From Harriotta raleighana (taxonomy: Eukaryota): a stretch of DNA of 64,000 bases. Where the stretch lies: positions 7,402,574 through 7,466,573 of the forward strand of contig JBNZDD010013725.1 of assembly GCA_050575255.1 (NCBI GenBank). The letters are read 5' to 3'. Positions 10,560 through 11,430 of the stretch are shown here, one piece after another. The position numbers were made by a program, and so were the translations under genes. The notes beneath the pieces were generated by a model that was given only the letters and a program-made list of their open reading frames with translations, did no database searches and was not told the DNA's origin. Position 1 is the stretch's first letter. Each line of letters starts with the position of its first letter.

Positions 10560-11430
10560 TTTTTTAAAAGGAGCTATTTTCATTGCATTTGGTTAATATT
10601 GCGTTATATTATTAAAGCTACTTGTGCTATCTAAAACAATTCAATCCTGCATTTGTTTCACTTTCGCATGGTGTGAACTGAAGGTTGGGAACTAAAAATC
10701 GCCAGTCCGTGAATTTTGGTCGGCTTGTAAGGGTTAAAACCTCACATGGAGCTATTCACCTTATGCTCAGTCAGTCTAGCCCTTCAATCTGTTAGTGACT
10801 GACTCCCAATGAGCAGGTCACAAGGTCATGCCCCAGGGCTCCCTGTCACTCAAACTCTGTGGCTTGGGTTGGGTGGTTTTCATCGGTTTTCCGCTCTGGC
10901 TGCCAATCACAAGTGGCGCATACAGCAGACCATTCAATCTTGGGCAATATTTTTGCAAGCTTGAAAGAAAATGCCTTGTCACAGGCAACAAGGAATACTG
11001 TATCTTTTATAAAACATGTGGCAAGTTGCCTCTTCCTCCATCATTCAGAAAAGCAATGTTTTTTTTGGTTAAGGACAGTCATCTTTATTGGCCGCAATAA
11101 AATCCAGCAAAGATAAATCACTGTACTTTTTACGGGTAAATCGAACATTTTTTATTGGGCAACATTCCTTGAGGCTTGTAATTATAGTAATGTTTGAAAA
11201 ACTATTTTCCTGAGCGTTTGTTATTATTACAAAGTGTCCTTGCTTTAAATGGTTTCATTTGCCTGAAGGTACTTGTAAAGGTCAAAAGGTGACAGCAAAC
11301 CTCGGGGCAAAAAAATGATCTCGATCATTATTGCTGCGATTGGGTCAAGGGACTGAGAGGAACATGAACTCATAATTCTGATTGGCACCAGCCAGTGAAA
11401 GCTCCTTCGAGACAATTTATAAACTACTAC
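10560..11430. promoter_or_regulatory. Candidate distal enhancer with two DR2 RARE-like elements and Hox/Pbx/Meis motifs
   Basis: AGGTCAcaAGGTCA at 10815-10828, AGGTCAaaAGGTGA at 11279-11292, inverted TTTATTG/CAATAAA at 11084-11101, TGATTTAT (minus) at 11113-11120. Unique sequence between two SINEs. Confidence 0.55.

What the first reader, a model, noticed from the sequence alone, without database searches (positions are those of the whole stretch)
10560..11430. Candidate retinoic-acid + Hox/TALE enhancer ~31 kb upstream of FOXC1
Seen: ~870 bp of unique sequence amid decayed TEs. It holds a perfect DR2 AGGTCAcaAGGTCA (10815-10828), a second DR2 AGGTCAaaAGGTGA (11279-11292) overlapping a Meis-type TGACAG (11290-11295), and an extra GGGTCA (11342). 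Between them lie a palindromic posterior-Hox/Cdx pair TTTATTG-gccg-CAATAAA (11084-11101), a Pbx-Hox TGATTTAT (minus, 11113-11120), TTTTACG and another TTTATTG (11151). Known: DR2 elements bind RAR/RXR, and Foxc1 expression in periocular mesenchyme depends on retinoic acid. Inference: an ancient gnathostome enhancer integrating RA and Hox/TALE input for FOXC1 or FOXF2.
Basis: partly seen in the sequence, partly recalled or inferred. Interest (0 to 1): 0.7.

Follow-up and report, generated by a model that had tools for sequence, protein, structure and literature searches.

The report
Repeat-built candidate enhancer near FOXC1
In a cartilaginous fish, a slowly changing stretch of non-coding DNA between FOXF2 and FOXC1 consists of two pieces that each have a few distant look-alikes elsewhere in the genome and each carry a retinoic-acid-receptor-type motif; it is likely an enhancer built from old repeat remnants, but receptor binding, target gene and presence in bony vertebrates are untested.

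Summary
Every motif is present as described; the gene 30.5 kb away is FOXC1 of a cartilaginous fish. Two blocks change far more slowly than their flanks in a related species (4/181 and 1/159 substitutions against 9%). But the DNA is not unique: the left block belongs to one low-copy family (3 supported sister copies; probably a tRNA-SINE relic whose B box supplies half of DR2 #1), the right block to another (copies in an MYH11-like intron and beside a KIAA0319L-like gene, themselves kept in relatives). The Meis site and the extra half-site are altered in relatives, and DR2 #1 is weakened in 2 of 3. Four TFAP2-type sites were missed. The window holds 9 DR2s where 0.55 are expected. A published human-zebrafish comparison found nothing conserved in this interval. 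Verdict: real constrained element, likely an exapted nuclear-receptor/TFAP2 enhancer; RA control plausible but unshown; 'unique gnathostome RA+TALE enhancer' only partly supported. The scan noted similar DR2 clusters on other DNA, not this one.

The parts
10700..10880 (.). Constrained block 1
   Evidence: 4 listed substitutions in 181 bp in organisms B and C against a 9.0% flank rate, P=2e-4
10797..10944 (+). Left relic: member of a low-copy family, probably a tRNA-derived SINE head plus body
   Evidence: Homologues L193/L047 (73% over 82 bp, E 1e-7), L195, L197; L196 doubtful; B box 18-20 bp before the shared block in the 4 supported copies with 2,0,0,1 mismatches
10815..10828 (+). DR2 #1 (AGGTCA-CA-AGGTCA); its 3' half lies on the family's B-box position
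   Evidence: 10819 C>T in runs X5 and X10, no change listed in X13; aligned to AGTTCA in L193 and L195
10830..10839 (+). TFAP2-type site abutting DR2 #1 (motif recalled)
   Evidence: no change listed in X5, X10
10843..10848 (-). Second TGACAG (Meis-type), part of the left family's shared block
10881..11133 (.). Middle stretch evolving at about the flank rate; holds the Hox pair and TGATTTAT
   Evidence: 21 of 253 in B, P=0.40; no change listed inside the Hox arms or TGATTTAT, changes fall beside them
11070..11390 (+). Right relic: member of a second low-copy family of unknown class
   Evidence: Copies L002 (MYH11-like intron, E 3.5e-15) and L003 (about 6 kb 3' of KIAA0319L-like stop, E 8e-7), partial L187, weak L007, one more in run X13; pairwise identity 57-65%
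11084..11101 (.). Inverted posterior-Hox/Cdx-type pair
   Evidence: only spacer base 11093 listed as changed; not kept as such in L002/L003
11113..11120 (-). TGATTTAT (Pbx-Hox type)
   Evidence: also present in copy L187
11128..11135 (+). TTTTACGG; TTTTATGG in X5, X10, X13 (both posterior-Hox/Cdx-type, recalled)
11134..11292 (.). Constrained block 2 = core of the right family
   Evidence: 1 listed substitution in 159 bp in B (P=5e-6; P=1e-3 if all 3 unlisted ones fell here), 3 in C
11150..11175 (.). TTTTATTG, TEAD-type ACATTCCT (11162) and TFAP2-type site (11167, minus)
   Evidence: TEAD-type site identical in L003
11243..11269 (+). CArG-like 10-mer (11243, shared with the MYH11-intron copy) and TFAP2-type site (11261, shared by all three long copies)
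   Evidence: 11269 G>A in X10
11279..11292 (+). DR2 #2 (AGGTCA-AA-AGGTGA)
   Evidence: no change listed in 4 runs, fully accounted for in X12 (5 of 5 differences listed), 45 of 85 rows not shown; 13 of 14 bases shared with L003, absent from L002
11290..11295 (+). TGACAG, not conserved
   Evidence: 11293 C>T in X5, X12, X10
11300..11308 (-). TFAP2-type site; 11304 G>A in all 4 runs brings it closer to the recalled consensus
11342..11347 (+). Lone GGGTCA, not conserved
   Evidence: 11344 G>A in X5
10106..10370 (-). Flanking high-copy SINE with tRNA-like head
11492..11660 (-). Flanking fragment of the same high-copy SINE
41901..43346 (+). FOXC1 coding sequence (likely target; FOXF2-like forkhead exon lies 27 kb on the other side)

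Best explanation
The stretch is a constrained non-coding element between FOXF2 and FOXC1 made of two separate low-copy relics, each holding a DR2 next to a TFAP2-type site, and it likely acts as an exapted enhancer predicted to respond to a DR2-binding nuclear receptor (RAR/RXR most likely) together with TFAP2 and posterior-Hox input, likely on FOXC1 and/or FOXF2. Shown: motifs, constraint in two blocks among related species, dispersed homologues of each block, retention of the sister copies in relatives, a DR2 excess around FOXC1. Inferred: that the relics are transposon remains (SINE for the left; class unknown for the right), that they arrived already carrying the DR2 or a near-DR2, that selection acts on enhancer function, which receptor binds, and which gene responds.
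For: Constraint: 4/181 and 1/159 listed substitutions against 67/746 in alignable flanks of run X5; the two slow blocks coincide with the two relics. Relics; sister copies lie at unrelated genes (MYH11-like, KIAA0319L-like), none in 100 kb of the FOXF1-FOXC2-FOXL1-like cluster; sister copies recognisable in runs X10 and X13 by their loose-end letters. Paralogue distance 0.46-0.65 against 0.05-0.08 between orthologues. B box at the DR2 #1 position in sister copies, the route by which Alu makes DR2s (PMC1785376, passages). Motif load: 2 DR2, 4 TFAP2-type, 4 posterior-Hox-type sites, each reached by 0 of 184 tiles. A DR2 with the same half-sites as #2 is among conserved mouse RAREs (Tshz1; PMC7259794 Table 2 passage). 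Mouse Foxc1 falls in perioptic mesenchyme without RA, directness open (PMC8834304 passages).
Against: No binding, chromatin or reporter data. DR2 #1 loses its consensus 5' half in 2 of 3 runs that cover it. The MYH11-intron copy keeps the core but not the DR2, so the family's constraint need not be about the DR2. Motif definitions (TFAP2 above all) were fitted after seeing the sequence. No human-zebrafish conservation in this interval, and deleting the whole zebrafish interval lowered foxc1a only to 0.92-0.8 late, with no phenotype (PMC9597995 results). In mouse F9 cells Foxc1 and Foxf2 rise only at 24-48 h of RA, not at 6-12 h (PMC4446430 supplement rows; column meaning inferred). Foxc1 is not named in the main text of PMC7259794. 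No tRNA model match for this copy.
Confidence: 0.45

Rival explanations
1. Enhancer as above, but the DR2s are read by RA-independent receptors (NR2F/COUP-TF, Rev-erb, NR4A or NR5A), with TFAP2 as the main driver.
For: DR2 is also the Rev-erb motif (the Homer DR2 used in PMC7259794 is Reverb); DR2 #2 begins with AAAGGTCA and DR2 #1 holds CAAGGTCA, extended monomer sites (recalled); four TFAP2-type sites, one shared by all three long copies; late RA response in F9 cells.
Against: The window-wide excess is specific to the 2-bp spacer, with no DR1; Foxc1 is RA-dependent in mouse perioptic mesenchyme.
Confidence: 0.2
2. One reading: a unique, pan-gnathostome enhancer integrating RA with Hox/PBX/MEIS.
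For: Motifs real; Hox arms and TGATTTAT show no listed change while neighbours do; a second TGACAG lies in the left shared block; paralogue distances point to great age.
Against: Not unique; TGACAG at DR2 #2 changed in 3 of 4 runs; Meis and Pbx-Hox counts at background; no human-zebrafish conservation reported.
Confidence: 0.13
3. The right block is a mesenchymal/smooth-muscle module (TEAD-type plus CArG-like plus TFAP2-type sites) shared with the MYH11-intron copy; the DR2s are passengers inherited from the repeats.
For: TEAD-type, CArG-like and TFAP2-type words are the parts shared among copies; one copy sits in a smooth-muscle-type myosin intron (MYH11 orthology inferred from the neighbouring FOP-dimer gene); a near-copy of the DR2 #1 region exists at another locus in run X10 (31 of 33 bases), so the DR2 may predate insertion.
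Against: TEAD and CArG-like counts are at background (17% and 32% of tiles); does not explain the locus-wide DR2 excess.
Confidence: 0.12
4. Non-functional old repeat remains whose slow change is chance or local mutation rate.
For: Only three or four related species, contigs only; flank rate rests on 746 bp of one run; block edges drawn after seeing the data.
Against: P=2e-4 and 5e-6 per block, with a neutral-rate stretch between them; very old copies still alignable only in the same short core, and kept in relatives.
Confidence: 0.1

Closest known systems
Conserved DR2 RAREs near developmental genes (Tshz1, Sox2, Zbtb16, Pbx1, Meis2, Cdx1; PMC7259794, passages seen)
   Same: DR2 at or within one mismatch of consensus; DR2 #2 has the same half-sites as the Tshz1 DR2; beside an RA-dependent developmental gene
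   Different: No RA-regulated chromatin mark, RAR peak or bony-vertebrate conservation known here; Foxc1 not named in that paper's main text
Alu-borne DR2 elements (PMC1785376, passages seen)
   Same: DR2 whose 3' half overlaps a Pol III B box of a SINE; latent RARE delivered by a repeat
   Different: Here the family is far older, has a handful of detectable copies, is probably tRNA-derived, and SINE identity is only moderately supported
Ancient conserved low-copy repeats (UCON, Eulor, MER130-type; Eulor12_CM listed in PMC5753468 Table 1, passages seen) and exapted SINE enhancers such as POMC nPE2 (PMC2000970, search listing only)
   Same: Few dispersed, non-coding, 57-75% similar copies at unrelated genes, each under apparent constraint
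   Different: No repeat library was available, so neither relic could be named or shown to be new; two different relics sit side by side in one element
FOXC1 conserved elements CEU1 and CED1-3 (PMC9597995, parts 1-2 of 7 and supplement part 1 read)
   Same: Non-coding elements of the FOXQ1-FOXF2-FOXC1-GMDS block
   Different: They lie upstream of FOXF2 or downstream of FOXC1; the authors found none between FOXF2 and FOXC1, where this one lies

Membership tests
DR2-type retinoic acid response element | Direct repeat of RGKTSA with 2-bp spacer | tested here: met
   core motif as in PMC4446430
DR2-type retinoic acid response element | Site kept across species | tested here: inconclusive
   DR2 #2 no listed change in 4 runs (45 of 85 rows hidden); DR2 #1 5' half changed in 2 of 3
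DR2-type retinoic acid response element | RAR/RXR binding and RA-dependent activity | not testable with these tools
   No orthologue to look up; my search of the mouse F9 peak table failed its own control
Hox/PBX/MEIS composite enhancer | Conserved Pbx-Hox site with a conserved Meis/Prep site | tested here: not met
   TGATTTAT unchanged, but the cited TGACAG changed in 3 of 4 runs and lies 170 bp away; counts at background
Pan-gnathostome conserved non-coding element | Slower than neutral change | tested here: met
   among near relatives only
Pan-gnathostome conserved non-coding element | Orthologue in bony vertebrates | not testable with these tools
   Metagenome pattern scan 0 hits, but the collection gave no FOXC1-like locus close to the query over its length; PMC9597995 reports none for human-zebrafish
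Whole-genome-duplication CNE pair (FOXC1/FOXC2 clusters) | Sister copy in the paralogous Fox cluster | tested here: not met
   No hit in C13594:470001-570000 with profile or single-sequence nhmmer; copies lie on contigs without a forkhead hit
tRNA-derived SINE relic (left block) | Dispersed homologous copies | tested here: met
   3 supported sisters, 1 doubtful, of 4 further pattern hits; control pattern 0
tRNA-derived SINE relic (left block) | Pol III B box just 5' of the body | tested here: met
   Perfect in 2 of 4 supported copies at offset 18-19 (background 0.2%), 1 and 2 mismatches in the others; copies are not independent
tRNA-derived SINE relic (left block) | A box / tRNA-like fold | tested here: inconclusive
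   No Rfam tRNA hit; relaxed ARAGORN of 5 copies at a threshold that of 300 random pieces
tRNA-derived SINE relic (left block) | LINE-derived tail and target-site duplication | not tested
   Copies too diverged; homology fades after about 150 bp
Ancient conserved low-copy repeat, UCON/Eulor-like (right block) | Few dispersed copies at non-paralogous loci, each retained across species | tested here: met
Ancient conserved low-copy repeat, UCON/Eulor-like (right block) | Match to a named Repbase/Dfam family | not testable with these tools
   No repeat library; six short words not found in the 2 supplement files of PMC3500645
Structured non-coding RNA | Rfam match or stable fold | tested here: not met
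   folding z between -0.12 and -1.05 for 4 of 4 strands

The most novel reading that the evidence does not exclude
FOXC1 is a direct retinoic-acid target through an array of DR2 elements spread over 57 kb, two of which were delivered by two different repeats older than the jawed-vertebrate radiation; sister copies of one repeat, kept in MYH11 and beside KIAA0319L, would form a repeat-seeded mesenchymal enhancer family still present in bony vertebrates, and the human orthologue would be a candidate site for unexplained anterior-segment/glaucoma variants.
Probability: 0.12. Interest if true: 0.75.

Novelty: new member of a known kind. Interest (0 to 1): 0.42.

Why it matters
Whether Foxc1 is a direct RA target was stated as unclear in PMC8834304 (2022), and no conserved element was found between FOXF2 and FOXC1 by human-zebrafish comparison (PMC9597995), though a glaucoma SNP maps there. 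A slowly evolving cartilaginous fish offers a concrete candidate element and seven further DR2s to align and test. It is also a compact example of an enhancer candidate assembled from two old repeats. As it stands it is a sequence-level candidate of a well-known kind. Searches for a prior description (listings) showed none, in an open-access library only.

Tried and rejected
Protein-coding or protein fossil: no ORF of 150 aa or more here; copies differ by frameshifts and stops on inspection; FOXC1, FOXF2, MYH11, KIAA0319L not in PMC9004415 text or supplement. Structured RNA: rejected. Paralogue in the FOXC2 cluster: none. One single long SINE spanning both blocks: no locus carries both relics; one cross-match at E=0.087 is not significant. 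Fourth right-family copy seen in run X13: not found in G000; L048 is not it. Pattern hits judged chance: 12 of 14, 5 of 9 (control pattern gave 4), L196; L007 is a 42-bp match of uncertain status. TFAP2E-like gene as neighbour of L003: 305 kb away. Bony-vertebrate orthologue: metagenome scans uninformative. Expression: no RNA holder listed. Mouse RAR/RXR peaks in the Foxf2-Foxc1 interval: search method failed its control, file also cut. Supplement of PMC12470030 unavailable and CED alignments in PMC9597995 are images; both could bear on direct RA control and on the identity of the element at 50107. A neural-crest enhancer paper I wanted for the TFAP2/NR2F rival is not held, so that link is recalled. 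Bacterial promoter scan irrelevant. One entry (10881) in my list for organism C came from a paralogous contig; it affects only the middle-stretch count for C, which I do not use.

Full report
Setting. The window is G000:C13725:7402574-7466573. The ORF at 41901-43346 is FOXC1: forkhead domain, best named relatives are shark and ray FOXC1 at 76-80%. On the same contig a FoxQ-type and a FoxF-type gene lie upstream and a GMDS-like exon at about 58,950 (minus), while a second cluster with FoxF-, FoxC- and FoxL-type genes lies on C13594 (subfamily labels by my reading of the translations). The organism is a cartilaginous fish, probably a chimaera (inferred and the 1.1-Gb assembly). The element is 30.5 kb from the FOXC1 start and 27 kb from the FoxF forkhead exon, so either could be the target.

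Observation. Two AGGTCA-NN-AGGTCA matches with up to one mismatch are reached by 5 of 100 shuffles of the window. Against 184 GC-matched, repeat-poor 871-bp tiles of G000, none reaches 2 DR2s or 4 posterior-Hox-type sites; Meis and Pbx-Hox counts are ordinary. Motif names are recalled.

Constraint. Contigs of related species cover the element at single-copy depth between high-copy SINEs. Over 10700-11400, run X5 differs at 33 of 701, X10 at 39 of 701 and X13 at 49 of 621 letters. Using the 30 listed X5 substitutions and a flank rate of 67 in 746, there are two slow blocks, 10700-10880 (4 of 181, P=2e-4) and 11134-11292 (1 of 159, P=5e-6; 1e-3 in the worst case for the three unlisted changes), around a middle stretch at flank rate (21 of 253). 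Block edges were drawn after seeing the data, and 45 of 85 rows were not shown. Site by site: DR2 #2 no listed change; DR2 #1 5' half C>T in X5 and X10; TGACAG changed in X5, X10, X12; GGGTCA changed in X5; Hox arms and TGATTTAT no listed change; TTTTACG reads TTTTATG in three runs; the TFAP2-type site at 11300 is closer to consensus in all four runs.

Not unique: right relic. A DNA search of G000 returned 3 matches, the element and two others. Alignment shows about 250-320 bp of shared sequence at 57-65% identity. L002 lies antisense in an intron of a myosin heavy-chain gene next to a FOP-dimer gene (MYH11-like); L003 lies about 6 kb beyond the stop of a KIAA0319L-like gene near neurochondrin. 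L187 shares 11098-11197 including TGATTTAT; L007 shares 42 bp. Both long sisters are seen in runs X10/X13, and X13 has one more copy that I could not find in G000. L003 shares 13 of 14 bases of DR2 #2; L002 lacks it. There is no copy in 100 kb of the FOXC2 cluster, so this is not a genome-duplication pair. Distances between copies (0.46-0.65) are 5-8 times the distance to the farthest relative laid (0.08): the family is much older than the split of these species; I have no calibration.

Not unique: left relic. Loose ends led to L047/L193 (73% over 82 bp); a pattern then gave 5 hits, control 0, of which L193, L195, L197 are supported by similarity outside the pattern and L196 is not. A Pol III B box sits 18-20 bp before the shared block, perfect in L193 and L195 (background 0.2%), and coincides with the 3' half of DR2 #1. 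That is how Alu yields DR2s (PMC1785376, passages). A tRNA fold was not shown, so 'tRNA-SINE' is likely, not proven. Run X10 holds another locus matching 10816-10848 at 31 of 33 bases, so the DR2 may have come with the repeat. No locus carries both relics: two separate arrivals.

Locus-wide DR2 excess. The window holds 9 RGKTSA-NN-RGKTSA sites, 0.74 expected, 0 of 100 shuffles, with 0 DR1 and 0 DR5; 929 kb of other G000 DNA, including both flanks and the FOXC2 cluster, holds 8. The excess needs the looser fifth position; with RGKTCA only DR2 #1 remains. Their conservation is untested.

Literature. PMC9597995 (parts 1-2 of 7, supplement part 1): no human-zebrafish conserved element between FOXF2 and FOXC1; deleting the zebrafish intervals gave mild late falls and no phenotype. 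PMC8834304 (passages): RA loss lowers Foxc1 in perioptic mesenchyme; directness unclear; PMC12470030 passages agree. PMC7259794 (passages): conserved RAREs include a DR2 with the half-sites of DR2 #2; Foxc1 not named. PMC4446430 (passages, two supplement rows): Foxc1/Foxf2 respond late in F9 cells. PMC5753468, PMC9004415 (passages), PMC3500645 (supplement search only) gave no name for either relic.

Mechanism. Shown: a constrained element of two relics, each with a DR2 beside a TFAP2-type site. Inferred: two old repeats inserted about 130 bp apart, brought latent nuclear-receptor and TFAP2 sites, and were kept as one enhancer (element functional and cis-regulatory, about 0.8; DR2s bound by a nuclear receptor, about 0.55; RAR/RXR, about 0.4). 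Posterior-Hox-type sites point to trunk, fin or skin rather than Hox-negative periocular crest (own knowledge).

Verdict. A new member of a known kind: an exapted, repeat-derived enhancer candidate with DR2s. Interest 0.42; it would rise sharply with a bony-vertebrate orthologue.

Noticed in passing
window 5414, 16164, 17697, 33552, 36911, 49899, 62772: Seven further DR2 (RGKTSA) sites around FOXC1, none of DR1/DR5 type; 33552 and 36911 are the same 14-mer in opposite orientation with unrelated flanks; two lie in decayed repeats.
   Followed up: partly
window 50107-50169: 63-bp match (87%) to C13594:486477-486537, between the FOXC2-like and FOXL1-like genes: a likely genome-duplication CNE pair downstream of FOXC1/FOXC2, 200 bp from the DR2 at 49899; may be CED1 of PMC9597995 (identity untested).
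   Followed up: partly
L002 (C13585:681526-681836) and L003 (C13527:204330-204680): Sister copies of the right relic in an MYH11-like intron and 3' of a KIAA0319L-like gene, retained in related species; candidate enhancers in their own right.
   Followed up: partly
L193, L195, L197 (C13607, C13661): Low-copy family with a B box before a shared 33-bp block; L193 is retained in runs X5 and X10; L197 lies near a Nudix-type exon (by eye), the others without an identified gene.
   Followed up: partly
L007 (C13660:1284405): 42-bp core match between a type II cadherin gene and RNF152; uncertain member of the right family.
   Followed up: partly
window 10106-10370 and 11492-11660: Very high-copy SINE with a tRNA-Val/Ala-like head and a central block resembling the Deu domain (resemblance recalled, untested).
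   Followed up: no
window 10449-10503: Recent 29-bp tandem duplication, absent from runs X5 and X10 by their gap pattern.
   Followed up: no
window about 58,900-58,970 (minus): GMDS-like exon; the DR2 at 62772 therefore lies in a GMDS intron.
   Followed up: no
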